Positions 6,151 to 63,874 of a DNA stretch of 64,000 nt are shown in pieces; position 1 is the first letter of the stretch; every line of letters begins with the position of its first letter. The DNA lies in NCBI GenBank assembly GCA_030390025.1, contig JASTWF010000334.1, positions 186,001 through 250,000 on the forward strand, read 5' to 3'. Source of the stretch: Squalus acanthias (lineage: Eukaryota). The translations under genes were made by a program, and so were the position numbers. The notes below the pieces were generated by a model. The model saw only the letters and a list, made by a program, of their open reading frames with translations. It ran no database searches and had not been told where the DNA came from.

Positions 6151-6469
6151 TCAGCATCATTCTTCGTTGGGTTGCAACATACTGATTAAGGAAGTTCTCC
6201 AGCACACCTTTTAGGAATTTTTCACCTTCCTTGCCCTTTACTCTGTTTCCCACCACAGTCTAAATTAGGGTAATTGAAGTCCACTACTATTACTGCTCTG
6301 TTATTTTTACATTTCTCTGAAATTTGCCAATAGATTTGCTCCTCTATCTCCTTCTCACTATTTGGGTGTCTATAGTAAACACCCAGCAATCTAACAGCTT
6401 TTTTTCTATTCATTAACTCTAATCAAATATATTCTGTCTTTGAACCCTCAAGTATATCGTCCCTCTGTA

Positions 6470-11065: not shown

Positions 11066-11174
11066 GAGAGGTCATTCTTTTGGGTTGATGGAACTAAATA
11101 TGATTTCAGAAAGTGGACTGTGGGAGAACCGAATAATAACGAAAATGGCGAGGACTGTGCGGTAACTAATCACG
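11066..11174 (+). CDS. C-type lectin gene A, CTLD exon with EPN motif (ERSFFWVDGTKYDFRKWTVGEPNNNENGEDCAVTNH)
   Basis: Acceptor tttctctcccacag| and donor |gtcagt; 109 nt, phase 0-1, in frame with exon 911-1051. Motif W.DG....W..GEPNN...EDC. Confidence 0.92.
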
Positions 11175-34200: not shown

Positions 34201-37200
34201 ACAGTTCCACAGGCACGGACTCTCACTGGGGTACAGTTCAACAGACACTGACTCTCACTGGTGTACAGTTCGACAGGCACCGACTCTCACTGGGGTACAG
34301 TTCCACGGGGCCTGACTCTCACTTGGGTACTGTTCCACGGGGACTGACCCTCACTGGGGTACAGTTCCACGGACACTGAATCTCACTGGGGTACAGTTCC
34401 ACGGGGCCTGACTCTCACTTGGGTACTGTTCCACGGGGACTGACCTCACTGGGGTACAGTTCCACGGACACTGACTCTCACTGGGGTACAGTTCCACAGA
34501 CACAGACTCTCACTGGGGTACAGTTCCACAGGCACTGACTCTCACTGCGGTACAGTTCCATCGGCACTGAATCCCACTGGGGTACAGTTCCACAGACACT
34601 GACTCTCACTGGGGTACAGTTCCACAGGCACTGACTCTCACTGGGGTACAGTTCCACAGACACTGACTCTCACTGGGGTACAGTTCCACAGGCACCGACT
34701 CTCACTGGGGTACAGTTCCACAGACACTGACTCTCACTGGGGTACAGTTCCACAGGCACTGACTCTCACTGGGGTACAGTTCCCCAGACACTGACTCTCA
34801 CTGGGGTACAGTTCCACAGGCACTGACTCTCACTGGGGTACAGTTCCACAGGACACTGACTCTCACTGGGGTACAGTTCCACAGACACTGACTCTCACTG
34901 GGGTACAGTTCCACAGGCACTGACTCTCACTGGGGTACAGTTCCACGGACACTGACTCTCACTGGGGTACCGTTCCATGGACACTGACTCTCACTGGGCT
35001 ACAGTTCCACAGGCACAGACTCTCACTGGGGTACAGTTCCACAGGCACTGACTCTCACTGGGGTACAGTTCCACAGACACTGACTCTCACTGGGGTACAG
35101 TTCCACAGACACTGACTCTCACTGGGGTACAGTTCCACAGGCACTGACTCTCACTGGGGTACAGTTCCACAGATACTGACTCTCACTGGGGTACAGTTCC
35201 ACAGACACTGGCTCTCACTGGGGTACAGTTCCACAGACACTAGCTCTCACTGGGGTACAGTTCCACAGGCACTGACTCTCACTGGGGTTCAGTTCCACGG
35301 ACACTGACTCTCACTGGAGTACAGTTCCACAGGCACTGACTCTCACTGGGGTACAGTTCCACAGACACTGACTCCCACTGGGGTACAGTTCCACGGGCAC
35401 TGACTCTCACTGGGGTACAGTTCCACAGGCACTGACTCTCACTGGGGTACAGTTCCACGGACACTGACTCTCACTGGGGTACAGTTCCACAGGCACCGAC
35501 TCTCACTGGGGTACAGTTCCACAGACACTGACTCTCACTGGGGTACAGTTCCACAGGCACTTACTCTCACTGGGGTACAGTTCCACGGGGACTGACTCTC
35601 ACTGGGGTACAGTTCCACGGGGACTGACTCTCACTGTGGTACAGTTCCACAGACACTGACTCTCAGTGGGGTACAGTTCCACAGACACTGACTCTCACTG
35701 GGGTACAGTTCCACAGACCTTGACTCTCAATGGGGTACAGTTCCATGGGCACTGATTTCCACTGGGGTACAGTTCCACAGGCACTGACTCTCACTGGGGT
35801 ACAGTTCCACAGGCACGGACTCTCACTGGGGTACAGTTCAACAGACACTGACTCTCACTGGTGTACAGTTCCACAGGCACCGACTCTCACTGGGGTAAAG
35901 TTCCACAGGCACTGAATCTCACTGGGGTACAGTTCCACGGGGACTGACTCTCACTTGGGTACTGTTCCACGGGGACTGACCCTCACTGGGGTACAGTTCC
36001 ACGGACACTGACTCTCACTGGGGTACAGTTCCACAGACACAGACTCTCACTGGGGTACAGTTCCACAGGCACTGACTCTCACTGCGGTACAGTTCCATCG
36101 GCACTGAATCCCACTGGGGTACTGTTCCACAGGCACTGACTCTCACTGGGGTACAGTTCCACAGGCACGGACTCTCACTGGGGTACAGTTCCACAGACAC
36201 TGACTCTCACTGGGGTACAGTTCCACAGGCACCGACTCTTACTGGGGTACAGTTCCACAGACACTGACTCTCACTGGGGTACAGTTCCACAGACACTGAC
36301 TCTCACTGGGGTACAGTTCCACAGACACTGGCTCTCACTGGGGTACAGTTCCACAGACACTAGCTCTCACTGTGGTACAGTTCCACAGACACTGACTCTC
36401 ACTGGGGTACAGTTTCACAGACACTGACTCTCACTGGGGTACAGTTCCACAGGCACCGACTCTCACTGGGGTACAGTTCCACAGACACTGACTCTCACTG
36501 GGGTACAGTTAAACTGGCACTGACTCTCACTGGGGTACAGTTCCACGGGGACTGACTCTCACTGGGGTACAGTTCCACAGGCACTGTCTCTCACTGGGGT
36601 ACAGTTCCACGGGGACTCACTCTCTCTGGGGTACAGTTCCACGGGACTGACTCTCACTGTGGTACAGTTCCACAGACACTGACTCTCACTGGGGTACAGT
36701 TCACAGACACTGACTCTCACTGGGGTACAGTTCCACAGGCACCGACTCTCACTGGGGTACAGTTCCACAGACACTGACTCTCACTGGGGTACAGTTAAAC
36801 TGGCACTGACTCTCACTGGGGTACAGTTCCACGGGGACTGACTCTCACTGGGGTACAGTTCCACAGGCACTGTCTCTCACTGGGGTACAGTTCCACGGGG
36901 ACTCACTCTCTCTGGGGTACAGTTCAACGGGGACTGACTCTCACTGGGGTACAGTTCCACAGACGCTGACTCTCACTGGGGTACAGTTCCACAGACACTG
37001 ACTCCCACTGGGGTACAGTTCCACGGGGACTGACTCTCACTGTGGTACAGTTCCACGGGGACTGACTCTCACTGGGGTACAGTTCCACAGACACTGACTC
37101 TCACTGGGGTACAGTTCCACAGACACTGACTCTCACTGGGGTACAGTTCCACAGACACTGACTCTCACTGGGGTACAGTTCCACGGACACTGACTCTCAC

Positions 37201-37462
37201 TGGGGTACAGTTCCACAGACACTGACTCTCACTGGGGTACAGTTCCACAGACACTGACTATCACTGGGCTACAGTTCCACAGACACTGACTCTCACTGGG
37301 GTACAGTTCCACAGACACTGACTCTCACTGGGCTACAGTTCCACAGACACTGACTCTCACTGGGGTACAGTTCCACAGATACTGACTCTCACTGGGCTAC
37401 AGTTCCACAGACACTGACTCTCACTGGGGTACAGTTCCACAGACACTGACTCTCACTGGGGT
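28201..37462. repeat. 32-bp minisatellite, consensus CACTGACTCTCACTGGGGTACAGTTCCACAG(A/G), about 290 units
   Basis: Directly visible tandem array of ~9.3 kb. Confidence 0.98.
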
Positions 37463-38101: not shown

Positions 38102-38214
38102 TGGCTGGATCCTTTGCGTGGGTACAGAGAGAACCAGATGTCGTACAGCTGCTGTTTGAATTCCTCCTTGTTCACTTTCGCCCTCCCCTTCTTGACTAAA
38201 TAACTGTGAGCAAT
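38102..38214 (-). CDS. endou: EndoU/XendoU-family endoribonuclease exon (IAHSYLVKKGRAKVNKEEFKQQLYDIWFSLYPRKGSS)
   Basis: Acceptor cttttcttctcag| and donor |gtaagt; 113 nt, phase 0-2. The FK.QLY.IWF.LY.R motif precedes the DSSGFEHVF catalytic exon in EndoU proteins. Confidence 0.88.
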
Positions 38215-38309: not shown

Positions 38310-38909
38310 GTCTCCCCATATCCCTCAACCCACTTTCTCCCATAACCCTCAACCCACCATCTCCCCATATCCCTCAACCTCACCTACCCACCTTTTCTCC
38401 ATATTCCTCAAACCCACCTCCCCGCCTACACCCCATATCCCTTAACCCACCTACCACCTTCTCCCATGTCCCTGAAGCTCACCTACCTACCTTCTTCCCA
38501 CATCCCCCAACCCTACCTTCTCCCCACTTCCCTCAATAACACCTACCCACCTTCTCCCCATATCCCTCAACCCCATCTACCCACTTTCTCCCCATATCCC
38601 TCAACCCCATCTACTCACCTTCTCCCCGTATCCCTCAACCCCATCTACCCACCTTCTCCCCATATCCCTCAACCCCATCTACCCACCATCTCCCATATCC
38701 CTAAACCCACCTGCCCACATTCTCTCCATATCCCTCAACCCCACCTACTCCCCATATCCCTGAAACCCATCTGCTCCTCATATCCCTCAAACCCACCTAC
38801 ACACCTTCTCACCATATCCCTCAACCCACCTACCTACCTTCTCCATATCCCTCAACCCACCTGCCCACCTTCTCCATATCCCTCAACCCACCTGCCCACC
38901 TTCTCACCA
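38310..38909. repeat. Pyrimidine-rich degenerate tandem repeat (ccttctccccatatccctcaaccccacctacc-like), left part
   Basis: Visible tandem units; the same repeat resumes after the Harbinger element. Confidence 0.9.
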
Positions 38910-39939
38910 AGGCTGGAATTTTCTTTACCTGGGCGGGTCCGGTGCGGGCAGTCACCATGGCCGGTTGTGACCCCATTCTTGCTTCCACCCCACTGCAGAA
39001 ATCAACTTTGCGCTAATGGGGCCATTAAGCCCGCCCTGTGCGTTACCCGGCCCTATTAAATGGTGCAGGTCTGATGACGTGATCGATGACACATTTTCAG
39101 CCGGGATATTTAAAGGTGCCATGGCCACATTGGCCCTGAAATTCGCCTCTCCGGCTTGCCGTGGGGGTAAGGATCGCGCGCGCACTTACCTCCCGCGCCT
39201 GCCGTTGACCTCTGGGCCCACGGGAACTTCAGCTCCTGGGCCTGCTCCAAGTGCCGGCGCGCAGTGCTTGCATGTCCCAGGGGCGTAGTTAGTGCGATGC
39301 GTCCCCTGGGATCACGTGGGCCATGGAGAGCCAATGGCAGCAGACCATCTTTCATTCATAGATTTGACAGGAAGACCTGTCAAATCTATGAATTGAAATC
39401 GGCCCCAAAAGAACAGCTAAACTTCAAATAAATTTTTAAAAAAACCATCACATTTATAAAATAACTATAAGTTAAATAAATTAACTACTTTAAACAAAAA
39501 TTTTAATTTTTGAAAAAATTAAAATACTTTTTAACAGTGCTAAAAATAAACTTACCTTTCTTTAAAGTATCTAAAAAAGATAAACCTGTTGAAATTTTTT
39601 TTAAATTATAATTAATTAACCACTTACCTTGTTGAAAACGGGTCTTGCGCCTCCTTTTTAAAAGCGCAGGTTCTTCAATACTTACCCTCCCGGAGAAACC
39701 TGAAAAAAACCCTAAGTTTGCTGCGTGCGCGCAGCCTCTACCGCGCACGCGGTTCACCTCTCAACCCCTCCCTTCACCAGACATGCAGGAAACCGGCACT
39801 TCAGGTGGCCTTACGGGTGAGTACACAGCGCGTACTCACCCAGCAAGTGCCAAAGTTTTGGCCCATTGTATTTAAAGGTTCATCTAGGAGTGTGCAGTCA
39901 CTGCACTAAAGCTTTTGATTGTTTCAAACACTTGGAAAC

Positions 39940-41810
39940 ATGACTGCACAGAGGCAGAGGGCTGCACCCAGGTTCTCCGATGACTCCCTCCATATGATTG
40001 TGGAAGGAGTCAGAGCACGCAGGGAGGTCCTCTTCCCTTCAAATGGGTGGAAGAGACCTCCCCAGGAGACAAAAAGAGCCTGGCTCCAAATTGCAGAGGA
40101 GGTGAACAGCAGGGATGTGGTCAGGAGGACCTGGGTGCAGTGCCGCAAATGTTTCAATGATCTCATTAGATCAGGAAACGTTAGTACAAAGCCACAAACC
40201 TCATCCTGCTGTGCCTCTCATCACATCCCCATCACTCTTCCTTCCCAACCCTATTCTGCACATCCTTACTCATACCAACATACCTTGCACGTCCACCCAT
40301 CCCTCTCTCGCTATCTACATTATCACATTCCCATCTCACTGGCCACCCCTCACACTCACCCTCATCCTAATCATACCAACTAACAACACACAAGGAGGCC
40401 ACTTGGCATTGCCACCCCACTCCATCATAATCTCCCTCTAAAGATGTAACCTATCCATTCCTTACACTCATTCCATCACTCTCACTCAACCTTCTCTTCT
40501 TTCCCTCCTTGCAGGAAAAGAGAACCCAAAATAAGAGGGAGAGGGGGAGAACCGGCGGTGGCCCTCCATCATTTGCAAACCTTACAACAGCAGAGGAGGC
40601 TGCTTTAGAAATACCTGTAATCGCCGAGCTGCTGGAGGTGGGAGACGGAAAGAGGGGTCATCTCAGCAACCTGGTGACAGAATTACATATCATACAGCTA
40701 CATGGTATATATCAGTCACTCATACGGGGACTGATGTCAGCAGCCAGTGAATGGTCATCATGTGCATAATAGTATCTGTATCCATTCTTCATATGGTGTA
40801 TCTAACTCATCTCTTTACTCTCCCACAGGTCCATCAAGAACACTGCCCCACCCCCAACCCCCCCTCCCCACTGTCCAGGAGGAAGAGAAAGATGACTCCT
40901 CGGAGTAGCCTCCAGCCTCTGAGGGTGCACCGTCACCAGACATAAGCGCACTCAGCACAAGCACAGATATGCACACCTCGGTGCATGCCACGTGAGATAG
41001 AATAGTGTTGTCACCTGGTATGTCACAACTCACAAGTGAGCAAGAGCAGATGGTGGAGACAGGGACAGCAGTGAAGCGTCCTCGCCGGAGGGTGCAGGAT
41101 GCTCTCAGCTTTGCTCAGCTGCATGCAGACACTGAGCCTTGGGGGCCATCCAGAAAGAGGGCGATCCTGGAGATGCAGGAAGAAGTGCAAGGGGCACTGA
41201 CAGGTTTTGCGAGCGCGATGTCTGCAAATGTTCCGAGAATGGAGGAATCCATCTCCAACATGAGCACCACCATGTCGCAGGCGATAGCGACTGTAGGCTC
41301 TTCCATGGATAGGATGGCCACCTGCATGGAGCAGCTAATGCGCCACTGACATGAGCACATGCTATCTATAGAGAATAGATGGCAGAGGTTCATAGTCCTC
41401 CTCTCTAGGAGGGATGTCAGTGTAGAAGTGGGTCCTCATGGCCCCACTGATATGCAGCAAGGTGCTCTCCAGCTACTTGCTAGCAGAGAAGTGCGGGTGG
41501 CCCAGGAGAGAGATGATGGTGAGAGGGGACATGGAAGTGTGGGCTCCTCTCAAAGCGCTTACACTTCTCCTCCATTGCCACCTCAGTCAGAGCCCCAGAT
41601 GCCTCCTCGTCAGCGATGGCCGAGTCTGTCCCTGCATAGTCACAGGAGGAACAGACTTTGGCGGGGCCATTAGAGGCTCCAAAACCCAGAGGGCGTCTGC
41701 CAAGAGTGTCTAAGTAGTCGCAGCAGGGAAGTGAGCAGGCTGCCTCTACCTCTGCTGAAGCCACAGGGGTAGCACCTCGTAGAAGCACGCGTAAGAGAAA
41801 GATGACATAC
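39940..41810 (+). pseudogene. Harbinger Myb/SANT-like DNA-binding protein gene; exons ~39940-40179, 40515-~40673, 40829-~41810
   Basis: RAAPRFSDDSL..LFP..KRAWLQIAEEVNS..RTWVQCRKCFNDL|gttagt, then cag|EKRTQNKRERGRTGGGPP. The 3' part has stops and frameshifts. Confidence 0.8.
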
Positions 41811-42113
41811 AAGCAGATTCACAAGGGTAGCCACTTGATTGTTTTAGTCAATGTTAATGTCAAGTTTCCGTTAATGTGATCTCAACCATAAAAATCTTTA
41901 TTTTCACCACTTTCCGGTCTTGGACAAATTTGCGTGCACCTTTGGAAGCGGTTTAGTGAGTTGCAGTGAATAGTGAGACATACTGTACCTCCAGCAATGG
42001 TGATCAGTGTGAAAGGAATGGCTTGGTCATTGTAGGGATCCTTTATGGTGCTGCTGTGGGGTGGTGCCAACCTGGTGCATCATGTGGCAGCCATATGGGT
42101 GTACTGTGTAAAT

Positions 42114-43350
42114 TTAAGTAAATCTAGCCATGATGAGACCATCCCTGGCCTCCCGGGCAGCAATGTGCTCAGGTGCTGGTGGGATCTGGGCCACAGGTTC
42201 CTCCAACACCTGCTCCTCCTCGTCTTCCAGCTGATGCTCCTCCTCTGAAGAAGAAGAGGCTGTGCGCTCAGTGCCTTGCTCCTCATGCAGCGCTAATCCT
42301 CGCTGCTGCACTATGTTGTGCAGGGCGCAGCAGACCAGGACAATTCTGGAGACCCTAGCTGGTGTGTACTGAAGGGCTCCTCCAGTTCTGACAAGGCATC
42401 TGAAGCGCATTTTCAGCATGCCTATTGTCTGCTGTCTGACACATCTGGTGGAAATGTGGTTTTCATTATATCTCTCCTTGGCCTCAGTACTTGGCCTCCT
42501 CAAGGGTATCATGAGCCACGTCTTCAGTGGATAGCCCTTGTCTCCAAGCAGCCAGCCGGAAAGTCTGCTTGGAGGAGCGAAGAGCTGAGGGAGGGTGGAC
42601 TGGCGAAGGATGAAAGAGTCATGACAGCTACCAGGGAATTTGGCGCTACATGCATGATGATCTTCTTATGCTTGCAGACCAGCTGCACATTGAGGGAGTG
42701 GAAGCCCTTGCGGTTGACAAGGACTCCTGGGTGATGATGGGGTGCCCTGATGGCCACGTGTGCAGTCAATGACGCCCTGCACCCGTGGGAAGCCAACCAG
42801 AGTGGCAAAGCCGAGCGCCCGCTCAGTAATACTGGCTTCATCAGTGGCAAAGTTGATATAATTGGCTGACTTGTCAAAGAGGGCATCGGTGACCTGTGTG
42901 ATGCATCTGTGGGCGGCCGACTGCGAGATGCCGCAAATGTCAGCTGCAGATCCCTGGAAGGAGCCTGAGGTGAAGAAGTTGAGGGCGCTGGTGACTTTGA
43001 CAGCCACTGGTAAGGCGTGTCCACCCGCTCCTCTGAGCTGCAGGTCTTGCTCCAGCAATCTGCAAATGTCTGCGACAACCTGGCATGATAGGCTGAACCT
43101 CCTTTTGGCACTGCTGCTCAGTCATGTTGACGAAGCTCATTGTCTGCCTGTATACCCTGTGTTGGGGGTATTGCCTCCGGCGCGGTGCAGCCCTGTGCTG
43201 ATGCCCTCTGTCTTGTGCAGCATCAGGTGGTTGAGGAGAAGGTTGGTGGTGTTGTTGTTGGTGCTGATGGTGTGCCTGGTGCTGCTGGTGTTGGGGCTCA
43301 TCGTGGTCCGATTCTGAGGACCAAGGTGACACAGTACAAACGACACCCAT
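42114..43350 (-). pseudogene. Harbinger (HARBI1-like) DDE transposase/nuclease, frameshifted
   Basis: [67 protein letters not shown] and [18 protein letters not shown] are spread over several frames. Confidence 0.9.
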
Positions 43351-43841
43351 GCTGATGGAATAGATGGCAGGTCAAGTAGAGATGAGAGGAGCAATCTTTC
43401 AAAGGTGTGATAGGTTGTAATAATGAGGCGACTTTGCTGGAAACACTTGCAGCCTCTAGAAAGTTAGATCTGTGCTGGGAATGCAGTCAGCAACAGCTTC
43501 TGCCTGAGGAAAGTGATCAGCTGTGAGGTGGGAGCTTTTATAGTACATTTCATGCTGTCAACTAATCAGCTGGATCAATGGCCACTCAACTCCCGCCTCA
43601 GGTTGACAGACGTGGTTCCCAAGCTGCGAGTATCCCATGGTCATTCAGGGAAATTTGAAAGGTAGGCTAAAAAAGCAGTTTGAGGATCTGACAACAAGCT
43701 GATAATCATTTAAATGCGCCCAATGGAGAGGCGCGTGGGGGCGGAATGACGGCGGGTTCCCGACCCGCTCCAACTTATTTCAAATTTCCCACCCAACCCG
43801 CCTCCGATCATACCCGCACGGACCCCAGAAAATTCCGGCCC

Positions 43842-44215: not shown

Positions 44216-44337
44216 CTGCAGCACTGGAGTCTCCATGACAGCGTCCAGAAAGCTGTGGATCTCTCGCTCCTCCTCTGGGGTAATGATCTCCGGTTCTCCT
44301 GTGTCAGCTTCATAATTATCCAATAGGGAAATGAATG
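44216..44337 (-). CDS. endou: EndoU exon (AFISLLDNYEADTGEPEIITPEEEREIHSFLDAVMETPVLQ)
   Basis: Acceptor ttccttttag| and donor |gtaac; 122 nt, phase 1-0. F..LLDNY...TG..E..T.EE..E...FLD is an EndoU hallmark. Confidence 0.92.
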
Positions 44338-44914
44338 CTAAAAGGAATCACAAATGTGTCTTTGCTATAATCTGTGCTTTGTGTCAATTGGGGGCAGGTG
44401 ATTCACTCACGGAGATCCAGCATTTAATATCAGAGTGTATTGGTATCAGGGATTGGGTAATATAGGGAGAAGATATTAGAGGGTGGTTGTCAGGGTGTGG
44501 ATTTCAGGGAGTGGGTATCAGAGACTTGGGAAATGATGTAGATGGTCTGAGAGCCAGCAGATGGATTCTCCTGTGGATATGAAGGTCAGGTGATGTATAT
44601 GAAGTAATGGTGTACAACATGAGGGCTGTCTGTTGGCAGAGAAAGTGTGTGGTCAGTGTGAGGCTGTTATTAATGAGGTAAATAAGGAGGGAACTGGGCT
44701 CCAGATCACAACAAGTGTACAGAGGAGTTGGGCCAGTTCTGGAGTGTGGGTACAGTACGGGGCACCCCACCTCAAATAGGATATTTAGACCCATTCAAAG
44801 GATGAGGGAAGAGTGACAAGGGCAGTTCAGGTCTTTAGGGGATTGAGTTATGAAGAAGGGGGCAGAGGACATGATCCAGGTCTGGGAATAACAAAAGGTG
44901 TAAATGAGGCGGAA

Positions 44915-45497
44915 TTTTTTTTTAAATTCGCTTATGGGATGTGGGCGTCGCTGGCAAAGCCAGCATTTATTGCCCATCCCTAGTTACCCTTGAGAAGGTG
45001 ATGATGAGCCGCCTTCTTGAACTGCTGCAGTCCGTGTGGTGAAGGTACTCCCACAGTGCTGTTAGGGAGGGTGTTCCAGGATTTTGATCCAGCGACAATG
45101 AAGGATCGGCGATATACTCCTAAGTCAGGATGGTGTGTGACTTGGAGGGGAACTTGGAGGTGGTGGTGTTCCCATGCGCCTGCTGCCCTTGTCCTTCCAG
45201 GTGGAAGAGGTCGCGGGTTTGAAAGGTGCTACCGAAGAAGCCTTGGCGAGTTGCTGCAGTGCATCTTGTAGATGGTACACACTGCAGCCACAGCACGCCG
45301 GTGGTGGAGGGAGTGAATGTTTAAGGTGGTGGATGGGGTGCCAATCAAACGGGTTGCTTTGTCCTGTATGGTGTCGAGCTTCTTGAGTGTTGTTGGAGCT
45401 GTACTCATCCAGGCAAGTGGAGAGTATTCCATCACACTCCTTACTTGTGCCTTGTAGATGGTGGAAAGGCTTTGGGGAGTCAGGAGGTGAGACAATT
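44915..45497 (-). mobile_element. 3' fragment of the LINE family seen at 3133-6150
   Basis: Encodes LSTIYKAQVRSVMEYSPLAW..LHHRRAVAAVCTIYK. Its 3' tail is the reverse complement of 6030-6145. Confidence 0.88.
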
Positions 45498-45534: not shown

Positions 45535-46433
45535 GAGGGCCACCGTCGGTTCTCCCCCTCTCCCTCTTATTTTGGGTTCTCTTTTCCTGCAAGGAGTATG
45601 GGGGAAGTGACAGTTAGAGAGAGATTAACAATTAGGGGGAGTGAGGGTTAGAGAGAGATTAACAATTAGGGGGGGTGAGGGTTAGAGAGAGATTAACAGT
45701 CGAAGGGGAGTAGGGGTTAGAGAGAGATTAACACGGGAGGGGTGAGGTTTAGAGAGTGGGGAGTTGAAGAAGGAAGTTAAAGTATGAGATCAAAAATTGG
45801 TGGGAGGGTTCCATGGTGCCGTGTTCAAGTGCTCTGCGTGTATCGGGGTTGTTGGGCTGAATTTCCTTTTCTGACTCTGGACTTTAAGGCTAGAAATTCG
45901 GTGCATTTGTGCCTCTTTTCGCCTGAGCATGGCACTGCTAGCGGCGGCGGTAACCAGTAGTGCCCCGCTCCGCTGCACAGGCGATGACGACGTCATCACC
46001 GTGCGCAGTGCCCTGTTTTCACCCCGCCTGCAACATTGGCCCACGCCCCCTGAATCTGCGCCGGGCGATGACAGCGACCGATTCAGGGGGCGGGAACGGA
46101 GCGGCGGGAGGCTCACGGGACGCTAAGTAAAGAGGAGGTGGCGGGCAGGGAATAAAAATAACCGGCCGACTTACTTGTCGCGGCCCATTGCGTCTTTGAA
46201 CGTGGGGTCCGTGCCGCGATCTGGCAGCCCGGCCCTCCTCTAGAGGGCTGGGCTGCTGGCACGGTACCCCGCTCCCCGGTGCTCCAGGTAGGGCCCCGCA
46301 GAGTTGTGGGCTTGGGCCCTCCCCTTTAATGAGGGGAGAGCCCTTCCATGCAGCAGTGCTACGTGGCCCAGTGCGTAGCACTGAAGAACGCACCGCCCCG
46401 ATATCCAGAACGGTCGCGAATGAATTTTTCCCC
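45535..46433. mobile_element. Harbinger-derived remnants: inverted copy of the Myb exon-2 start, a short ~38-bp tandem repeat, and a GC-rich MITE-like segment (~45886-46433)
   Basis: 45535-45596 is the near-exact reverse complement of 40505-40565. The ends aggctagaaattc... and ...gaatttttcccc are TIR-like but weakly matched. Confidence 0.5.
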
Positions 46434-46520: not shown

Positions 46521-46626
46521 CTGAAAACGTTTTCTTTTTGAAAACTTCCTCGTTCACATAAAGGAACAATGGGAGTGCTGCTCCCTCAGTGACGTCTGTG
46601 TTATGTACAGTTTGTTCAGCTTTCTC
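46521..46626 (-). CDS. endou: EndoU exon (EKAEQTVHNTDVTEGAALPLFLYVNEEVFKKKTFS)
   Basis: Acceptor ttattgttgcctacag| and donor |gtacga; 106 nt, phase 0-1, in frame with 44216-44337. Motif PLF..V.E....K.TF. Confidence 0.85.
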
Positions 46627-46669
46627 CTGTAGGCAACAATAATAAAGAGAAATGACTGACCTGTTGTGT

Positions 46670-46945
46670 CGAACCATAGAAATCACAGCACAGCAGGAGG
46701 CCATTCACCCCATCGTGCCTGTGCTAGTTATTTGACTGAAGCTGCCTGTGCTGATCCCCATTTCCCCGCCCTGTCCTTGTGTCCATTTATATTCATCTTT
46801 TTCAATCCTTATCCAATTCCCTTCTAAATGTTCCAGTCTCTCCCTCAGTAGCCCCTTGTGATAAAACAACCCATGTTGTAATAACTGTCTGTGTGAAAAG
46901 GGTTTTTCCAACTTCCCCCCTCATTATTCCAGTGATAATCCTCAG
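46670..46945 (-). mobile_element. Degenerate CR1 3' end
   Basis: Tail catagaaatcacagcacagcaggaggccattca. Remnant translation GKTLFTQTVITTW..FRRELD. Confidence 0.6.
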
Positions 46946-46947
46946 TC

Positions 46948-47457
46948 TGAAAGAAGGAACGTGCATTTCTATCGCGCCTTTCACCACCTCAGGACGGCCC
47001 AAAGTGCTTCACAACCAATCAAGTACTTTTTGAAGTGTACTAACTGCTGTAATGTAGGAAACGCAGCTGCCAATTTGTGCACAGCAAGATCCCACAAACA
47101 CCAATGTGATCATTACCAGATCATCGGTTTTAGTGATGTTAGTTGAGAGATAAATATTGGCCAGGACACCAGGCAGAACTCCCCTGCTCTTCCTCCAATA
47201 GTGCCATGGGATCATTTACATCTCTTACGTTGAGTCTGCAGCACAGAAACAGGCCATTCGACCCAACAGCTCCATGCCGGTGAATATGCTCCACACAAGT
47301 CTACTCCCTCCCCTTTTCATCGAACTCCATCAACATATTGCTCTATTCCTTTCTCCCTCATGTGTTTATCTCGCTACCCCTTAAATGCATCTATACGTCC
47401 ACCTGAGAAGGCAGAAAGGCTCTTGGTTTAACGTCTCATCCGATAGACAGCACCTCC
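46948..47457 (-). mobile_element. Deu-domain SINE (SacSINE1/AmnSINE1-like) with an L2-type tail, interrupted by a short CR1-tail piece (~47220-47395)
   Basis: Minus strand reads ggaggtgctgtctatcggatgagacgttaaacc...gatcccatggcactatt..gagcaggggagttc..gtgtcctggccaatatttatc, which I recognise as the Deu core. Its tail resembles the L2 end at 9985-10030. Confidence 0.75.
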
Positions 47458-47925
47458 CCTTGTTATTGATTCACTAACATTTGGACCAATCTTTCATCAT
47501 TTACACTCTCAAAACATTTTTTCGAAGTTGTCTCTCTGTTAAACAGTGCCAGTAAATACTCCTTGTGCAGCAGCTAACTATAACCACATACTTCATCATT
47601 TGTACATACTCGCTGTAGCACAAAGCCCTTGTGAAAGATCTGTTCAATCACTTTACAAATGCCAAATACATTAACCACCATTCAGCAACTTTGCACAAAT
47701 GAAGACTTTCAGTGATGAAACTTCTCTGAGGAGAATGACAGAATCTTTTCATGATTGAGAAGCCTTTGAGGGGCCAGGGATCATGATGGCGGGCAGCAGT
47801 GAGGGGGCAAAGAGCAGGAGAGCAGGAAAGTCAGGAAGCAGTGATTAGGTAACACCAAGATCATAGGAGGAAGGGAAGAGCAAGGCAGGTTCCACAGCTT
47901 TGAAGGCCTTGTTCAGAATAAAAAT

Positions 47926-48010
47926 GAGAAGTCGCACAACACCAGGTTATAGTCCAACAGATTTATTTAATTTTACAAGCTTTCGGAGCTGTCGCTCCTT
48001 CGTCAGGTAA
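47926..48010. mobile_element. Short Penelope-like terminal fragment
   Basis: cacaacaccaggttatagtccaacagatttattt..agctttcggagc..ctccttcgtcaggt resembles shark Penelope ends (recognition only). Confidence 0.4.
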
Positions 48011-48179
48011 GTTAGCAATGAGAGAATCTCCCAGAATTCACAATTTAAACCCAGACAAAATCTATTCACATTATTCACTACAACAAAGAGCACAGCCAAG
48101 ACAATGAGATGTGTCCCAGGGGGTATAAAGAGACAGTGCAATCAGCCTGGATTTCAGTAACTGTGAGGATCCAAAGAGG

Positions 48180-49094
48180 AGGGAGAGTGTGTGGGACGGG
48201 GGGGGAGAGTGTGTGGGACGGGGGGGGGGAGAGTGTGTGGGACGGGGGGGAGAGTGTGTGGGACGGGGAGAGTGTGTATGGGATGGGGGAGAGTGTGTGG
48301 GACGGGGGAGAGTGTGTGGGACCGGGGGGAGAGTGTGTGGGATGGGGGAGAGTGTGAGGGACGGGTGGAGAGAGTGTGTGGGACGGGGGGGAGAGTGTGT
48401 GGGACGGGGGAGAGTGTGTGGGACGGGGGGAGAGTGTGTGGGATGGGGGAGAGTGTGTGGGACGGGTGGAGAGAGTGTGTGGGACGGGGGGAGAGTGTGT
48501 GGGACGGGGAGAGTGTGTGTGGGATGGGGGAGAGTGTGTGGGACGGGGGGGAGTGTGTGGGACGGGGGGAGAGTGTGTGGGATGGGGGAGAGTGTGAGGG
48601 ACGGGTGGAGAGAGTGTGTGGGACGGGGGGGAGAGTGTGTGGGACAGGGAGAGTGTGTATGGGATGGGGGAGAGTGTGTGGGACGGGGGAGAGTGTGTGG
48701 GACGGGGGGGAGAGTGTGTGGGACGGGGGGGAGAGTGTGGGACAGGGGGAGAGTGTGTGGGATGGGGAGAGTGTGTGGGACAGGGGGGAGAGTGTGTGGG
48801 ACGGGGGGAGAGTGTGTGGGACGGGGAGAGTGTGTGGGACGGGGAGAGTGTGTATGGGATGGGGGAGAGTGTGTGGGACGGGGGGAGTGTGTGGGACGGG
48901 GGGGAGAGTGTGGGACGGGGAGAGTGTGTGGGACGGGGGGAGAGTGTGTGGGTCGGGGAGAGTGTGTGGGACAGGGGGCTAGTGTGGGACGGGGGGAGAG
49001 TGTGTGGGACGGGGGGGAGAGTGTGTGGGACGGGGGGAGAGTGTGTGGGACGGGGGAGAGTGTGTGGGACGGGGCGAGAGTGTGGGACGGGGGG
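48180..49094. repeat. G-rich ~23-bp minisatellite (GGGGGAGAGTGTGTGGGACGG), runs into a gap
   Basis: Directly visible tandem array. Confidence 0.95.
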
Positions 49095-49294
49095 NNNNNN
49101 NNNNNNNNNNNNNNNNNNNNNNNNNNNNNNNNNNNNNNNNNNNNNNNNNNNNNNNNNNNNNNNNNNNNNNNNNNNNNNNNNNNNNNNNNNNNNNNNNNNN
49201 NNNNNNNNNNNNNNNNNNNNNNNNNNNNNNNNNNNNNNNNNNNNNNNNNNNNNNNNNNNNNNNNNNNNNNNNNNNNNNNNNNNNNNNNNNNNNN
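49095..49294. other. Assembly gap (200 N, true size unknown)
   Basis: Run of N. Confidence 1.
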
Positions 49295-49785
49295 CCCCCC
49301 CCGGGGTTATTAGACACTATCCCCCCCCCCGGGGGACACTATCCTCCCTCCCCAACGGTTTAATCAGCTGAGCCGTGAATGAAATCCTCTCGAGTGAGCT
49401 CAAAGCCAAGTGAGGAATTCACTGGATCATTTTCTGTTGGCCGGTGTGATGTTAACGAGAGGCACAAATTAATAATAAACTATGTCCCCAAATTGGCGCA
49501 GCCTCCCGACACATTCCAGCTTTAACTGAACAGGATGTGGACACAGGATCCGGGCCCACCAGGGGCGGGGATTCCAGGCCAGAGGAGCAGGCTGGACCCC
49601 CGAAGATAAAGTTGTGCGGGATGAAGGGGCACAAGAATGTTTGTGGATGAAGAAGGAAGTGGGCACAGCCCTGGATGGCAATATGTATCCGTGCTTCAGG
49701 CCATGTGGGTCCTGACAAGCCCTCATCGTGTTACCAGTGTCCGCTGACCCCATGCTGATGAGGGGCCTCACACTTACCTCCATAC

Positions 49786-50211
49786 GGGCTATGGTAGCAT
49801 AGTGGTAACGTTACTGGACTAATGATCCGGAGACGTGAGTTCAAATCTCATCAGGGAAGCTGGGGAATTTAAGTTCAGTTAATTAAATAAATCAAGAATT
49901 TAAAAAAAGCTAGTGTCAGTAATGGTGACCATAAAACTACCGGATTTTCGTAAAAACCCACCTGGTTTTCTAATGTCCTTTAGGGAAGGAAATCTGCCAT
50001 CCTTACCCGGTTTGGACTACATGTGACTCCAGACCCACAGCAATCTGGTTGACTCTTAACTGCCCTCTGAAATGGCCACTCAGTTGTACCAAACCGCTGC
50101 AAAGAAGTATCACGGACTGCAGCGGTTCAAGAAGCTGGCTCACCACCACCAAGGGCAATGGGCAATACATGCCAGTGATGCCCATATCCTGTGAATGAAT
50201 AAATTTAAAAA
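49786..50211 (+). mobile_element. tRNA-headed SINE inserted in the left arm only
   Basis: A box tagcatagtgg (49795-49805), B box gagttcaaatc (49837-49847) and an A-rich tail. The right arm has the empty site (ccatactccgggg). Confidence 0.85.
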
Positions 50212-50674
50212 ACTCCGGGGCAGCGTCACTGCTGGAGGGCACAGGTGGGCACAATCGCAGCGTCACTGTTTAGACCGTGGGCCGTGGAATTTCAGAGCCT
50301 ATTTCTCCACAGCGAATGGTGAGAATGTGGAATTCTCTGCCACAAACTGGTGATGAAGCCGAGCCCATCAATTCTTCAAAAAGGGAAATAGATAGCTCTT
50401 AAAAGTAGACTATTGAAACGGATGGAATGATGAGTGAGCAGGAGAGAGGGATTAGACTGACTGGGATAGTAAAGGGTATAGGGAGTGAGCAGGAGAGTGG
50501 GATTAGACTGGGCAGAATATCAAGGTTTTGCAAAGTTAGATAGTTGCCCATTTTAGGATATTCCTTCAGGAGCCGCTCCTTTCTATTCCCTCTAATTTAG
50601 ACAGCAGGTAATCCACAAACTTTCCACCTCACAGCATTAACCTGTCCTCACACACCGTGTCTGGTTGACCCTAC

Positions 50675-50729
50675 CTGCCACATCACTGACGAGCAATGCA
50701 CTCAGCACCAAAACCATCACCAGCATCAT
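50675..50729 (-). CDS. Signal-peptide coding exon of the left-arm lectin-type gene (MMLVMVLVLSALLVSDVA); whole exon 50675-50757
   Basis: Acceptor ttttccttgtgtttcag|, ATG, hydrophobic 18-mer, phase-1 donor |gtaggg. It differs from the right-arm exon at 4 of 83 nt. Confidence 0.8.
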
Positions 50730-50835
50730 GTCTGCAGTGAAGTTCCTTTCCTCTCACCTGAAACACAAGGAAAAGATTCAACATTAGTGTCAAGGTTTCA
50801 AATTAAAGATTGGGATTTCCTGCTCCCATTCCTAC

Positions 50836-50990
50836 CTCTTTTTCTCTCTCCCAGTTGTCTGATGTGATGAGGTTTCGAGTGCCACTGCATATATATATCG
50901 CAGATTGTGGAGACCTTTGGAACCATTGAAATCAGATCCAATTGGCTGGACCATTAATGATGTCAAAATTGCTGCTGGCCAATCAGTGAC
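50836..50990 (-). promoter_or_regulatory. Putative Pol II promoter and UTR exon 1 of the left-arm gene
   Basis: TATA-like atatatatat (50889-50898), CCAAT motifs (~50938-50946, ~50979-50983) and a donor |gtagga after 50836, followed by a 78-nt intron. Confidence 0.6.
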
Positions 50991-51564
50991 TGGCAGCTCA
51001 GAACAGGAGGGACTGGAAACCACTGGAATGTTTTGTGAGCGACACATGAGATTGTACAACGTGGCACTGTAACTGCTCACTGAGAAATGGAAACTGCAGT
51101 CACGCTTTCTGACCCAGTGATCAGCTTGTTAGGAAATGCATTTATGATATTAGGATTTGATGAATATTATCAATGAGAACATTGGATTTGGTGGCCATTA
51201 TATTGAGGTGAAAACCCCAAAAATAAAGTGATAATACTCACAAAAACTTGAGAATTTTTATATAGAACAATCCAATCCCTTTTGTAATACTGTAGATCTG
51301 AACCCCATCTATTCCCCCATTTCTCACCATGGCGGAAGGTCTCCTTCATGCACTGGCTGCAGTGAGATTGTAATCTGTTTGTAAAGAACAGGGTTAATTC
51401 AGAATCATTGGCACCTTTGAAAAAGGAGCTGGATCGATGTCTGTTCAGAAGGGGGATTGAGGGATGAGGAGATAACAGAACCTCTTGGTGTTTTTCCAGG
51501 GACAGAACAGAGCATTCCCTAAACCAACAGGTGGTGTAACCCTCTAGACCCAAAAGTCCTGTCC

Positions 51565-51915
51565 TGCTTCAGTTATACAGTGCCTTGGTCAGACCCCATT
51601 TGGAGTGTTCAGTTCACTTTTGGGCACCACATCTCAGGAGGGATATATTGCTCTTGGAGTGGGTGCAGTGGAGAATCACCAGAATGATACCGGGGCTCAG
51701 AGGAGTAAATTATGAGGACAGGCTGCATAAACTTGGCTTCTATTCCCCAGAGTATAGAAGACTGAGGGGTGAACTGATTGAGGTTTTTAAAATGTTTAAA
51801 TGATTTGACGGGTAAATGGAGTTGACGTGCAGATCAGTTGTGATCTAATTGAATGGCGGAGCAGGCTTGAGGGACTGAATGGCCTACTCCAATTCCTAAT
51901 GACCTACGTTCCTAT
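51565..51915 (+). mobile_element. CR1 3' fragment in the spacer of the inverted repeat
   Basis: Encodes LVRPHLECSVHFWAPHLRRDI..RRLRGELIEVFK; tail gaatggcctactcc..gttcctatg. Confidence 0.8.
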
Positions 51916-52904
51916 GCGCGGTTAGTGTCTGTGAAGGTTTCGACAGCCCTTGGATTTTATGTGACTATTTCATTTCAGTTCCTTTGAGACACACTTTGGC
52001 TGTGAGCCAAAGTACTGAGCACCAGTGTAGAAATGTTCCCTGTAAGCTGCTCGGCTTGCTGGCTTTTCAATGTAAAAACCAGACATGCCCAGTATTATAA
52101 ATGGCCCATGGGGGCTGCGCGGTGCCAAACAAAATTACAGAGAACACGGCAATGTAGTCGTCAAAAAGTCAGGAACCGTCTTCATGCTGAAAGGAGTCAC
52201 AAAGCACAGAAGAGAGGTGGGCTTGTGTGCCTGATTCCACGACCCCACTGGCTCCTTGAACCCTATGTGGGAGGATCTGATCTGTGTACTGGGTGCAGTG
52301 AATATGTAAACACATTCATTGGAACAGGAGCGAGTGTGGAGGAAGAAAAGGCCATTCGACCCATCAATCCCACTCCATTCAAAGTCCAGGTCTCATTATT
52401 CCATCATGGATTGCCTCCCACACCACCAGTTGGTTTAGGGAATGCTCCATTCTGTTCCTGGAAAAAACATCAAGCTGTTCCGTTATCTCCATATCCCTCA
52501 ATCCCCCTTCAGAACAGACATCAATCCAGCTCCTTTTGAAAGATGCCAATGATTCCCAATTGACCCTGTTCTTTACAAATGGGTTACAATCTCACTGCAG
52601 CCAGTGCATGAAGGACAACTTCCGCCATGGTGAGAAATGGGGGAATAGATGGGTTTCAGATCTATTACAAAATGAATTAGATAAATTCTCATGTTTTTGT
52701 GAGTATTATCCCTTTATTTTTGGGGTCGTTACCTCAATATTGTTCTCATTGATAATATTCATTAAATCCTAATATCATAAATGCATTCACTTACAGGCTT
52801 TTTATTTCAGGTTCCCGATGAAATGGGGAGCTGATGTGATGGAAAGGTGGTTCATTGCTTAATTTAGATGATTATCAAAACCGTATTAAGAGCAGTGTTG
52901 CAAG

Positions 52905-53285
52905 AATGTACTCGTTAGAGCAGAGAAGGCTAAGGGGAAATTTGATAGAGGTGTTTGAAGTCATGAACTGTTTAGATGGAGTCGGTAAAGAGAAACTGTT
53001 TCCTATGGCTGAAGGGTCGCTAACCAGAGGGCACAGATTTAAGGTGATTGTCAAAAGAATCAGAGGAGACACAAGGAAAAACTGGTTAGAATTTGGAATG
53101 CACTGCCTGATAGGGTGGTAGATACAGATTCAATAGTAGGGAATTGGATAAATACTTGTAGGAAAAGAATTGCGGGGATATGGGAAAGAGCGGGCGTGTG
53201 GTACTAAATGGACTGCTGTTTGAAGGAGCCGGCGCAGACTCGATAGGCCGAATGGCCTCCTTCTGTGCTGTACTATTCTATGATA
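52905..53285 (+). mobile_element. CR1 3' fragment in the right arm only
   Basis: Encodes YSLEQRRLRGNLIEVF..TRGHRFK; tail gaatggcctccttctgtgctgtactattctatga. Confidence 0.8.
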
Positions 53286-53419
53286 CTAAAATGGGGTCAG
53301 GAAGCGTGACTGCAGTTTCCATTTCTCAGTGAGCAGTTACAGTGCCACGTTGTACAATCTCATGTGTCGCACACAAAACATTCCAGTGGTTTCCAGTCCC
53401 TCCTGTTCTGAGCTGCCAG

Positions 53420-53569
53420 TCACTGATTGGCCAGCAGAAATTTTGAGATCATTGATGGTCCAGCCAATTGGATCTGATTTCAATGGTTCCAAAGGTCTCC
53501 ACAATCTGTGATTTATATATATGCAGTGACACTCGAAACCTCATCACATCAGACAACTGGGGGAGAGAG
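53420..53569 (+). promoter_or_regulatory. Putative Pol II promoter and UTR exon 1 of C-type lectin gene B
   Basis: ctgattggcc (~53423), cagccaattgg (53461), TATA tttatatatat (53512-53522) and a donor |gtagga at 53570, followed by a 78-nt intron to 53647. Confidence 0.62.
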
Positions 53570-53675
53570 GTAGGAATGGGAGCGGGAAATCTCAATCTTT
53601 AATTTGAAACCTTGACACTAATGTTGAATCTTTTCCTTGTGTTTCAGGTTAGAGGAAAGGAACTTCACTGCAGAC

Positions 53676-53730
53676 ATGATGCTGGTGACAGTTTTGGTGC
53701 TGATTGCATTGCTCGTCAGTGATGTGGCAG
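53676..53730 (+). CDS. C-type lectin gene B, signal-peptide exon (MMLVTVLVLIALLVSDVA); whole exon 53648-53730
   Basis: Acceptor ttttccttgtgtttcag| and phase-1 donor |gtaggg. The phase matches the CTLD exon at 63690. Confidence 0.85.
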
Positions 53731-53751
53731 GTAGGGCCAAACAGACACAGT

Positions 53752-54457
53752 GGGCTTGATTTTGTCATTGGGGTGGGCTGGGGTCATGTCATCCGCTTTT
53801 CATGTTAGCCACCCGACTCCAATTGGATGTGGGAGAATTATTTGATTTTCCCCTAATTGCGCAATTGAGTTCCAGCATGTGGGAACCCATGACGCAATTC
53901 GTTTTTTCAGTCTGAAAGTCGCCTGTGATGATGTCATCATTGCTGCTGCATTTAAGGTCTGCAAAGACTGGGAAGCTTTTGGCCTTTGCTGTGAGAGGGA
54001 CCTGGAGGCAAAATGAGGAGCAGGAGACCTAAATCTGCTCCCAGATTTTTTTTGTACCACCACCACTGTTATGACTGCTAAAAGTTCCCCCAGAATGATG
54101 ATTGATCAAATCTCCTTCTTAATGGTGGACCTGCAGCTGATAGTCAGCAATCCAAGTGTGCTACCGCCAGGTTTCACTGTCATGTTTCAGAGGAGGCGTG
54201 CATCACGTCGGAAAAGTGTTAAAATCAGAAAGGCCTCTCAAAATGGGATTATAGAGGCAATTAAGTGGCTGTTAAGGGCCTTAAGGGCCTATCCCGCCTC
54301 TTGGAGGCGGGACGGAGACGGGATCAGAAACCACGCATTTGGGAAAATTGCTCGGAGGTGGGATGGAGGCGGGGTCGGGCCCGCCCGCCATTTTTTGCAA
54401 TTTTAACACCCCACACGCCTCCATTCCTGCCTCCTCGGGCCTGGCAAAATCGAGCCA
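53752..54457. mobile_element. Non-autonomous Harbinger-type MITE
   Basis: TIRs gggcttgattttgtca / tggcaaaatcgagcca, flanked by agt/ggt. The left arm has the empty site (agacac-ggt-gtgtgagg), implying a 3-bp TSD. Confidence 0.85.
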
Positions 54458-55354
54458 GGTGTGTGAGGACAGGTTAGTGCTGTGAGGTGAAGAGTTAGTG
54501 GATTACCTGCTGTGTAAATTAGAGGGAATAGAAAGGGGTGGCACCTGAAGGAATTTCCTAAAATGGGCAACTATCTAACTTTGCAAACCACCAATATTCT
54601 ACCCTGTCCATTCCCATGCTCCGCTCACACCCCGTACCCTTTAATATCCCACTCTCATGCTCACACCACATTCCCTTTAATAACCCATCCAGTCTAATCC
54701 CACTCTCCTGCTCACTACCATACCCTCCAATAGTTGATTTTTAACAGATATCTATTTCTCATTTGAAAGAATTGATGGGCTCGGCTTCATCACCAATTTT
54801 TGGCAGAGAATTCCACATTCTCACCATCCGCTGTGGAGAAATAGGCTCTGAAATTCGACGGCCCACAGACTGGACAACGACACTGGGGTTTTACCCAACA
54901 CTGCCCTCAGCACTGACCCTGCCCCGGAGTATGGGGGTAAGTGGGAGTCCTCTCATTAGCATGGGTTCAACGGCCACTGGCGCCTCTATGGGGGCATCTC
55001 AGACCCTACACTGCCCGAAACATGGGCACCTGCTGCCAACCAGGGGTGCTTCCAATTCCTTCCCCTCCATAAACATTATTGTGTCCTGTTCAGCCCCCAC
55101 TACTTGATCTTCAGGGTCCAGGCTTCTTCTCTGGCCTGGAATCCCCGCCCCTGGTGGGCCCGGATCCTGTGTCCAGATCCTGTTGAGTTACAGCTGGCCA
55201 ATTTGGGGACGTAGTTTATTTTTAATTTGTGCCTCTCGTTACCCTCACACCAACCAATAGAAACTGATCCAGTGAATTCCTCAATTGGCATTGAGTGAGT
55301 TCACTCGACAGGATTTCATTCACTGATCATTGATTAAACTGTTGTAGGTGTTGC

Positions 55355-55605
55355 GGGGGAGATAGTGTCTAATAACCCAGAGGTGGGGGATAGTGTCTAA
55401 TAACCCTGGGGGATGGGGGAGGAATAGTGTCTAGTAACCCGGGGCAGTGGGTGCAGGATAGTCTAATATCCTGGGGGTGAGGGGAATAGTTTCTAGTATC
55501 CCCGGGACGGGGGTTGGTCATAGTGTATAAAAGTCCCGGAGGGGGGGGATTATTCTCTAATAACCACAGAGTGGGAACGTATAGTGACTAAAAACCCCGG
55601 GGGGT
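55355..55605. repeat. Short degenerate tandem repeat (gggggatagtgtctaataaccc core)
   Basis: About 8 units; inverted copies lie at 49295-49345 next to the gap. Confidence 0.8.
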
Positions 55606-63689: not shown

Positions 63690-63874
63690 CTCATGTTGCC
63701 CTGAATAGAACATTGGAGAACAGGCAACTGGAGACAGAGACTGATCAGGATCAGCACCTTGAAAAACGTGGCGACAGTAGGAATGGACCTTGTGCCTACG
63801 GCTGGTTTCATTTTCATTACTTGTCCTTCTGTTACAAGTTCTTCACTTTCAGAAAGTCTTGGATAGAAGCTGAG
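63690..63874 (+). CDS. C-type lectin gene B, first CTLD exon (AHVALNRTLENRQLETETDQDQHLEKRGDSRNGPCAYGWFHFHYLSFCYKFFTFRKSWIEAE)
   Basis: Acceptor ttccctttaactgcag| and donor |gtaagc; phase 1-0. Long-form CTLD start C..GW.......CY.F.....W..AE. Confidence 0.9.

What the first reader, a model, noticed from the sequence alone, without database searches (positions are those of the whole stretch)
49295..55400. Head-to-head inverted duplication of a secreted-lectin promoter and signal-peptide module
Seen: two 2-3 kb inverted arms around a ~0.9 kb spacer. Each arm has CCAAT boxes, a TATA box, a short UTR exon, a 78-nt intron and an 83-nt exon encoding an 18-aa signal peptide, transcribed divergently with the TATA boxes ~2.6 kb apart. 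The exons differ at only 4 of 83 nt and all splice sites are intact. The distal arm parts look clearly more diverged and carry arm-specific insertions (a SINE on the left; a MITE and a CR1 piece on the right). Inference: an old duplication whose core is kept similar by selection or arm-to-arm gene conversion, giving a divergent gene pair that may share regulation.
Basis: partly seen in the sequence, partly recalled or inferred. Interest (0 to 1): 0.72.

Follow-up and report, generated by a model that had tools for sequence, protein, structure and literature searches.

The report
Head-to-head shark lectin gene starts
In a shark genome, the front ends of two related genes for secreted sugar-binding proteins sit back to back and are much more alike than their surroundings, most likely because they copy sequence from each other, an ordinary pattern in gene clusters.

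Summary
The inverted duplication is real and as described: arms of 2.2 and 3.0 kb, an 882-nt spacer, a 78-nt intron and an 83-nt exon with 4 differences. A core of about 455 nt differs at 16 of 453 aligned sites; the flanks differ by 9-17%.

The right arm is the 5' end of a secreted C-type lectin gene: it splices in frame to exon 63690-63874. The family is a cartilaginous-fish lectin cluster lying next to EndoU-B. The left arm is intact but runs into a gap of Ns at 49095-49294. Beyond the gap, on the same strand, lie EndoU-B exons and no lectin exon.

Best reading: two lectin paralogues head to head, with promoter and leader homogenised by gene conversion on top of selection, as in SIGLEC11/16. 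Transcription of the left arm is not shown: the one RNA contig seen there carries a third allele. Shared regulation is untested. This is a known kind of arrangement; interest is modest.

The parts
49298..51537 (-). Left arm of the inverted duplication: upstream flank, promoter, exons 1-2 and the start of intron 2, cut by the gap
52420..55412 (+). Right arm of the inverted duplication
51538..52419 (.). Spacer, 882 nt; about 51537-51900 is a CR1-type LINE remnant
50657..51115 (-). Left high-identity core (promoter, exon 1, intron 1, exon 2); 16 of 453 mismatches to the right core
53294..53748 (+). Right high-identity core, bounded on both sides by right-arm insertions
50889..50982 (-). Left CCAAT/ATTGG motifs and TATA-like run (function not tested)
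53426..53522 (+). Right CCAAT/ATTGG motifs and TATA-like run (function not tested)
50836..50865 (-). Left exon 1 (5' UTR); donor seen, start position inferred from the TATA
53545..53569 (+). Right exon 1 (5' UTR); donor matches the join in two Heptranchias gene models, start position inferred
50758..50835 (-). Left intron 1, 78 nt, GT-AG
53570..53647 (+). Right intron 1, 78 nt, GT-AG
50675..50757 (-). Left exon 2, 83 nt, 18-aa leader from ATG 50729, ends in phase 1
53648..53730 (+). Right exon 2, 83 nt, 18-aa leader from ATG 53676, ends in phase 1
63690..63874 (+). [quoted passage not shown]
49786..50213 (+). Left-only insertion, tRNA-headed SINE-like element
52795..53293 (+). Right-only insertion, CR1-type LINE 3' fragment; its left junction is bridged by a contig of organism B
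53749..54457 (.). Right-only insertion with terminal inverted repeats (MITE-like)
49095..49294 (.). Assembly gap (200 N) between two different minisatellites; must hide the first coding exon of EndoU-B and possibly the rest of the left lectin gene
46521..46626 (-). EndoU-B exon, same strand as the left arm
44216..44337 (-). EndoU-B exon (Pfam XendoU positions 60-99)
38102..38214 (-). EndoU-B exon (Pfam XendoU positions 101-135)

Best explanation
An old inverted duplication inside a shark cluster of secreted single-domain C-type lectin genes put two paralogues head to head, each with its own CCAAT/TATA promoter, UTR exon, 78-nt intron and leader exon. Shown: the right copy splices in frame to a lectin exon 10 kb downstream; both leaders are intact family leaders; divergence between the arms comes in strata (3.5%, 9%, 14-17%). 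Inferred: after the duplication, mobile elements inserted privately and broke up the homology. The longest unbroken block, the ~455-nt promoter-to-leader core, kept being homogenised by non-allelic gene conversion, between the arms or with other cluster members, while selection also holds the promoter and leader. Also inferred: the remaining exons of the left gene lie in the gap at 49095-49294, ahead of EndoU-B. The effect would be lectins with a shared expression and export module but free to diverge in the sugar-binding domain.
For: In-frame splice and family match; best 34 of 60 residues identical to Heptranchias lectin P0146. 51 of 61 proteins examined carry this leader. At the two differing residues the left arm has M5 and S10 (13 and 18 of 51 family members); the right arm's I10 was in none of 51, so the left arm shows no decay. 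Non-coding parts of the core are as alike as the coding part: promoter 6 of 228, intron 2 of 78, coding 3 of 55. Both core edges coincide with right-arm insertions. Over 50743-51023 the arms differ at 9 of 275 sites, while a contig of organism F differs from the left arm at 22 of about 268 (Fisher p=0.016). In distal intron 2 the arms differ more (68 of 409) than organism F does at two nearby unique stretches (53 of about 448, p=0.049). At 53528 all 5 organism-F contigs laid there read A where both arms have G. Two Heptranchias paralogue models are identical over their first 86 residues, which read through promoter and leader, and differ at many sites further on. EndoU-B and this lectin family share a contig in 10 of the 11 species where both were listed with a contig.
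Against: No lectin exon 3-6 was found on the minus strand in the window, and no further homology to the right gene beyond the gap. The only RNA contig at 50716 (run X18, depth 319 of 319) carries G, which is not the left arm's letter; it gives codon 5 = ACG if the next base is unchanged, matching neither arm. The organism-F contigs are not shown to be orthologues, only 32 pieces were listed and 376,878 were not, and aligned lengths were estimated. The core is not GC-enriched (0.46 against 0.39-0.53 in the flanks). The decline in identity is graded, not a sharp step. The promoter is also conserved in Heptranchias (63% identity over 38 pseudo-codons), so selection alone explains part of the pattern.
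Confidence: 0.55

Rival explanations
1. Same two-paralogue arrangement, but the core is held by purifying selection alone on promoter, short intron and leader, with no conversion.
For: The leader is conserved across sharks and rays (mean identity 0.55-0.90 between genera against 0.33-0.52 for the mature part). The promoter aligns to Heptranchias. Organism F differs less in the core (22 of about 268) than at two unique stretches (53 of about 448), though p=0.13. Frog antimicrobial-peptide genes show conserved leaders under purifying selection and conserved ~250-bp promoters (PMC13128954, passages).
Against: The arms are closer to each other in the core than to organism F, while the reverse holds in distal intron 2. 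The intron and promoter are no more diverged than coding sites. The core edges sit at insertions.
Confidence: 0.22
2. The left arm is an orphan 5' duplicate with no lectin exons. It looks intact only because the right arm or other cluster members keep converting it.
For: No lectin exon follows it in the window; its own allele was not seen in RNA run X18; the next exons on its strand belong to EndoU-B.
Against: The gap lies between two different minisatellites and already lacks the first coding exon of EndoU-B, so unique sequence is missing. The left leader keeps family-typical residues where the right one has changed. One RNA run laid as contigs cannot show absence.
Confidence: 0.2
3. The left arm has been captured as a promoter or leader for the downstream EndoU-B ribonuclease gene.
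For: Same strand; 4 kb of assembled sequence plus the gap separate the leader exon from the next EndoU-B exon; the missing EndoU-B exon must lie in that gap.
Against: None of 15 cartilaginous-fish EndoU-B proteins has a leader like this one (best hydropathy at most 1.81 against 3.17). A direct splice to exon 46626 is out of frame. Six of the seven models with an extended N-terminus read R-M at the start, suggesting an acceptor one base before the ATG, which would also be out of frame with a phase-1 leader (inference). EndoU-B is simply the usual neighbour of this cluster.
Confidence: 0.07
4. The inversion is an assembly artefact.
For: The left arm ends at a gap; none of the 32 listed contig pieces bridges the left-arm/spacer junction.
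Against: The arms differ by 3.5-17% and carry private insertions, which a fold-back read would not give. There is no N between 49295 and 64000. Organism B contigs bridge the spacer/right-arm junction (52266-52544, 4 differences) and the CR1 junction (52751-52954, 3 differences).
Confidence: 0.03

Closest known systems
Primate SIGLEC11/SIGLEC16 (PMC5701461, passages read)
   Same: Head-to-head lectin paralogues a few kb apart, with a high-identity block (97-99%) covering upstream sequence and the first exons next to a lower-identity block, attributed to recurrent gene conversion.
   Different: There the converted 2-kb block includes the ligand-binding exon of membrane receptors, 9 kb apart. Here it is ~455 nt, stops at the leader exon of a secreted C-type lectin, and multi-species orthologue trees could not be built.
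Elasmobranch secreted C-type lectin cluster beside EndoU-B (RefSeq models named lectin-like, C-type lectin-like etc. in Heptranchias, Heterodontus, Leucoraja and others)
   Same: Same 18-aa leader, same upstream UTR reading, same propeptide-plus-domain exon 3, same neighbour gene, several paralogues per species.
   Different: Gene orientation in those genomes could not be seen (proteins only), so whether a head-to-head pair is shared is unknown. The skin lectin of Heterodontus japonicus (Tsutsui et al., seen only as a citation in PMC10707392) may belong here; not tested.
Ranid antimicrobial-peptide gene clusters (PMC13128954, passages read)
   Same: Clustered secreted defence genes with a conserved TATA promoter and leader exon but variable mature product.
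   Different: Unrelated proteins; the passages seen credit purifying selection, not conversion.
Saccharomyces flip/flop region (PMC9731477, abstract and section list read)
   Same: An inverted repeat of paralogues kept alike by homogenisation, which can invert the DNA between the copies.
   Different: 24-kb yeast region with 4-kb near-identical repeats; no inversion polymorphism was tested here.

Membership tests
Elasmobranch secreted C-type lectin family (right gene) | Family leader peptide on its own exon | tested here: met
   up to 16 of 18 residues match family members
Elasmobranch secreted C-type lectin family (right gene) | [quoted passage not shown] | tested here: met
   this exon alone has no Pfam hit, its full-length relatives hit PF00059
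Elasmobranch secreted C-type lectin family (right gene) | Complete domain with Ca2+/sugar-binding motif (EPN or QPD, WND) | not testable with these tools
   Later exons lie beyond 64000; no genome is held for this window
Elasmobranch secreted C-type lectin family (left copy) | Family leader peptide with intact splice sites | tested here: met
Elasmobranch secreted C-type lectin family (left copy) | Downstream lectin exons on the same strand | tested here: inconclusive
   None in the window, but an assembly gap intervenes
Concertedly evolving inverted gene pair (SIGLEC11/16 type) | Mosaic identity with a high-identity block that includes intron and non-coding DNA | tested here: met
Concertedly evolving inverted gene pair (SIGLEC11/16 type) | Paralogues group by species in the block and by orthology outside it | tested here: inconclusive
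   Organism F comparisons point that way but orthology is not established and only a few contigs were shown
Concertedly evolving inverted gene pair (SIGLEC11/16 type) | Raised GC in the converted block (criterion used in PMC2720389, passages; supportive, not obligatory) | tested here: not met
   core GC 0.46, flanks 0.39-0.53
Bidirectional promoter | One shared promoter, starts within about 1 kb (definition recalled) | tested here: not met
   Two complete promoter copies with TATA runs 2.6 kb apart
Bidirectional promoter | Divergent transcription and co-regulation | not testable with these tools
   Only contigs were available; they cannot show starts or strand

The most novel reading that the evidence does not exclude
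The left arm no longer serves a lectin but has become a promoter or leader for the adjacent EndoU-B ribonuclease, kept up to date by conversion from the lectin gene facing it. This would put an RNase under lectin-type control, or export it if a splice is in frame. A milder version (about 0.12): the two cores act as recombination ends that flip the 2.2 kb between them and swap upstream regulatory DNA.
Probability: 0.07. Interest if true: 0.7.

Novelty: new member of a known kind. Interest (0 to 1): 0.3.

Why it matters
It is a compact natural case in which conversion seems confined to the promoter-plus-leader module, with mobile-element insertions marking its limits. It bears on why leader exons of fast-evolving secreted defence gene families stay so alike (selection or conversion). 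It also anchors a little-studied shark and ray lectin cluster next to EndoU-B. The mechanism itself is well known from other gene pairs, so the gain is a new example. Only the low-probability EndoU-B capture would surprise a specialist.

Tried and rejected
No genome is held for this window, so the cluster could not be mapped and the gap could not be closed.

A word-index homologue search with exon 3 alone found nothing (2 candidates); the full phmmer scan found 10 proteins.

Run search: no listed holder is on record as RNA; this is no evidence on expression. Four of the 22 listed runs were laid. The tables were swamped by mobile-element contigs (40 letter differences shown and 1606 not; 15 joints shown and 3497 not; 24 loose ends shown and 14,109 not), so no splice joint or exon loose end was visible for either arm. 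X18 is only guessed to be RNA. Summed depths were not used as copy numbers. The organism A contig at 50433-50604 (25 differences, no gap) could be a third copy or a right-arm allele lacking a 35-nt repeat unit (left and right differ at 23 of 172 sites there), so it was not counted as evidence.

A six-frame and splice-site scan of 46630-50660(-) found no EndoU-B first exon and no lectin exon. A direct splice of the left leader to EndoU-B is out of frame. The GC test for biased conversion was negative.

Earlier scan findings: 4 look-ups, none returned anything. Five paper searches listed no paper describing this locus or an elasmobranch lectin cluster beside EndoU; subscription papers, including the Heterodontus japonicus lectin paper, are not in the library, and no supplements were read. 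No structure or complex prediction was run, as neither bears on the question.
Full report
Observation. The inverted repeat is real. Four collinear inverted blocks link 49298-51537 to 52420-55412 around an 882-nt spacer. Each arm has CCAAT/ATTGG motifs, a TATA-like run, a GT donor, a 78-nt intron and an 83-nt exon with an ATG 28 nt in, giving an 18-residue hydrophobic leader. The exons differ at 4 of 83 sites. Private insertions are a 428-nt SINE-like piece on the left and a 499-nt CR1-type piece and a 709-nt element with terminal inverted repeats on the right; these class names rest on sequence features and recall, not on a repeat library.

Identity is not uniform. The core (L 51115-50657, R 53294-53748) has 16 of 453 mismatches; upstream 35 of 375; proximal intron 2 59 of 436; distal intron 2 68 of 409. 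No permutation of 5000 gave a 450-column window as clean as the observed one (15 against a minimum of 21). The contrast remains at sites not prone to CpG decay (9 of 269 against 15 of 228, 30 of 239 and 38 of 203). Both core edges fall at right-arm insertions.

What the genes are. The genome is a shark's: an EndoU-B exon matches a Pristiophorus japonicus protein at 98%. The right leader splices in frame to exon 63690-63874. That exon found 10 relatives among 1.84 billion representatives; 9 were looked up and are shark or ray proteins, 7 of them named lectin- or snaclec-like. A profile search gave 143 proteins, the top ranks being elasmobranch lectins, several per species. The same leader is in 51 of 61 proteins examined; the 10 misses include two with a one-residue-shorter start, partial models and non-family proteins. 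Two Heptranchias models read through the promoter and join exon 1 to exon 2 at the same place, which supports the intron independently. A further lectin gene has exons at 911-1051 and 11066-11161 on the plus strand, so the window is part of a cluster.

The left arm. Its leader and splice sites are intact, and where the arms differ in protein the left has family-typical residues. But its intron 2 enters a minisatellite and then a 200-N gap. On the far side, same strand, are three EndoU-B exons; the first coding exon of EndoU-B is absent from the window, and so is any lectin exon on that strand. EndoU-B and the lectins share a contig in 10 of 11 species where both were listed with one; the exception, Chiloscyllium punctatum, has its EndoU-B on a 145-kb scaffold. 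Accession numbers are adjacent or close in Leucoraja, Heptranchias, Amblyraja and Hemitrygon, and not in Heterodontus, Rhincodon or Pristis. So EndoU-B is the normal neighbour, and the simplest reading is that the gap hides the rest of a lectin gene and the start of EndoU-B. None of 15 EndoU-B proteins has a comparable leader, and a direct splice is out of frame.

Reads. Four of 22 listed runs were laid, and mobile-element contigs crowded the tables. Organism B contigs bridge the spacer/right-arm and CR1 junctions, which argues against an artefact. A further organism B contig spans 54806-55175 with 48 differences, where the two arms differ at 67 of 369 sites and another B contig matches nearby right-arm DNA at 9 differences; this suggests a third copy. 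In the RNA-like run X18 the only contig over 50716 has depth 319 and a G. If the next base is unchanged this gives codon ACG, one transition from each arm (ATG left, ACA right). Organisms B and F mostly carry the same letter (14.8 of 14.8 and 72.3 of 106.6). The family appears expressed, but not demonstrably from either arm.

Conversion or selection. For conversion: non-coding parts of the core are as alike as coding sites. The arms are closer to each other in the core (9 of 275) than to an organism F contig (22 of about 268, p=0.016), and likewise upstream (14 of 191 against 32 of about 221, p=0.027). In distal intron 2 they are further apart (68 of 409) than organism F is at two unique stretches (53 of about 448, p=0.049). 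At 53528 five of five organism F contigs share a letter absent from both arms. For selection: the leader is conserved across sharks and rays and the promoter aligns with Heptranchias, and there is no GC rise. The organism F contigs are a small, length-selected sample of unproven orthology. I put the chance that conversion contributes at about 0.7, that the right arm is a lectin gene at about 0.95, and that the left arm is a complete lectin paralogue at about 0.65.

Comparison. The closest described case is SIGLEC11/16: head to head, 9 kb apart, 97-99% identical over upstream DNA and first exons through conversion (PMC5701461, passages). PMC2720389 (passages) gives intron identity and raised GC as criteria and reports diverged upstream regions in its three mammalian pairs; here the first criterion is met, the second is not, and the promoter is inside the block. 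Frog peptide genes show conserved promoters and leaders credited to selection (PMC13128954, passages). A homogenised inverted repeat can flip the DNA between its arms (PMC9731477, abstract); this was not tested here. Five searches listed no paper on this locus or cluster; other papers in those listings were seen as titles and abstract openings only.

Verdict. This is a new example of a known kind: head-to-head paralogues in a lectin cluster with a homogenised 5' module. Interest 0.3. The open point worth one experiment is what lies in the gap behind the left arm.

Noticed in passing
window 38909-43839: A ~4.9-kb element with similar inverted ends inside an EndoU-B intron, with a frameshifted transposase-like frame on the minus strand (about 42114-43121) and a Myb-like frame on the plus strand (39919-40383). 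The label Harbinger/PIF is recalled; no family search was completed.
   Followed up: partly
window 45535-45596 and 40505-40566: A 62-nt inverted copy (98% identical) of an acceptor and exon start from that element sits in the next EndoU-B intron.
   Followed up: no
window 911-1051 and 11066-11161 (+): Exons 4 and 5 of another lectin paralogue, with an EPN motif (mannose-type specificity is recalled, not tested). With exon 3 at 63690 they tile one lectin without overlap, probably by chance, but contig order across the two gaps is unverified.
   Followed up: partly
window 11394-28000 and 28202-37462: Very long minisatellite arrays (33-nt unit x 504; 32-nt unit x 290) meet at a 200-N gap where the last lectin exon and the catalytic exons of EndoU-B should lie.
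   Followed up: partly
window 28201-49094: This 20.9-kb contig lies between two gaps and ends in repeats on both sides; its placement and orientation rest on scaffolding alone.
   Followed up: no
window 5636-6161 and 44903-45494: Two copies of the same LINE 3' end, 85-93% identical, inverted relative to each other; the left-arm SINE shares part of its tail with them.
   Followed up: no
P0026, P0147 (Heptranchias models): These database proteins have a 45-residue N-terminal extension that is a read-through of the promoter and exon 1, probably a mis-chosen start codon.
   Followed up: partly
window 50325-50420 and 54750-54818: A CR1-like fragment shared by both arms, so inserted before the duplication; seen only as weak matches (E about 0.1) to a mis-annotated model start.
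   Followed up: no
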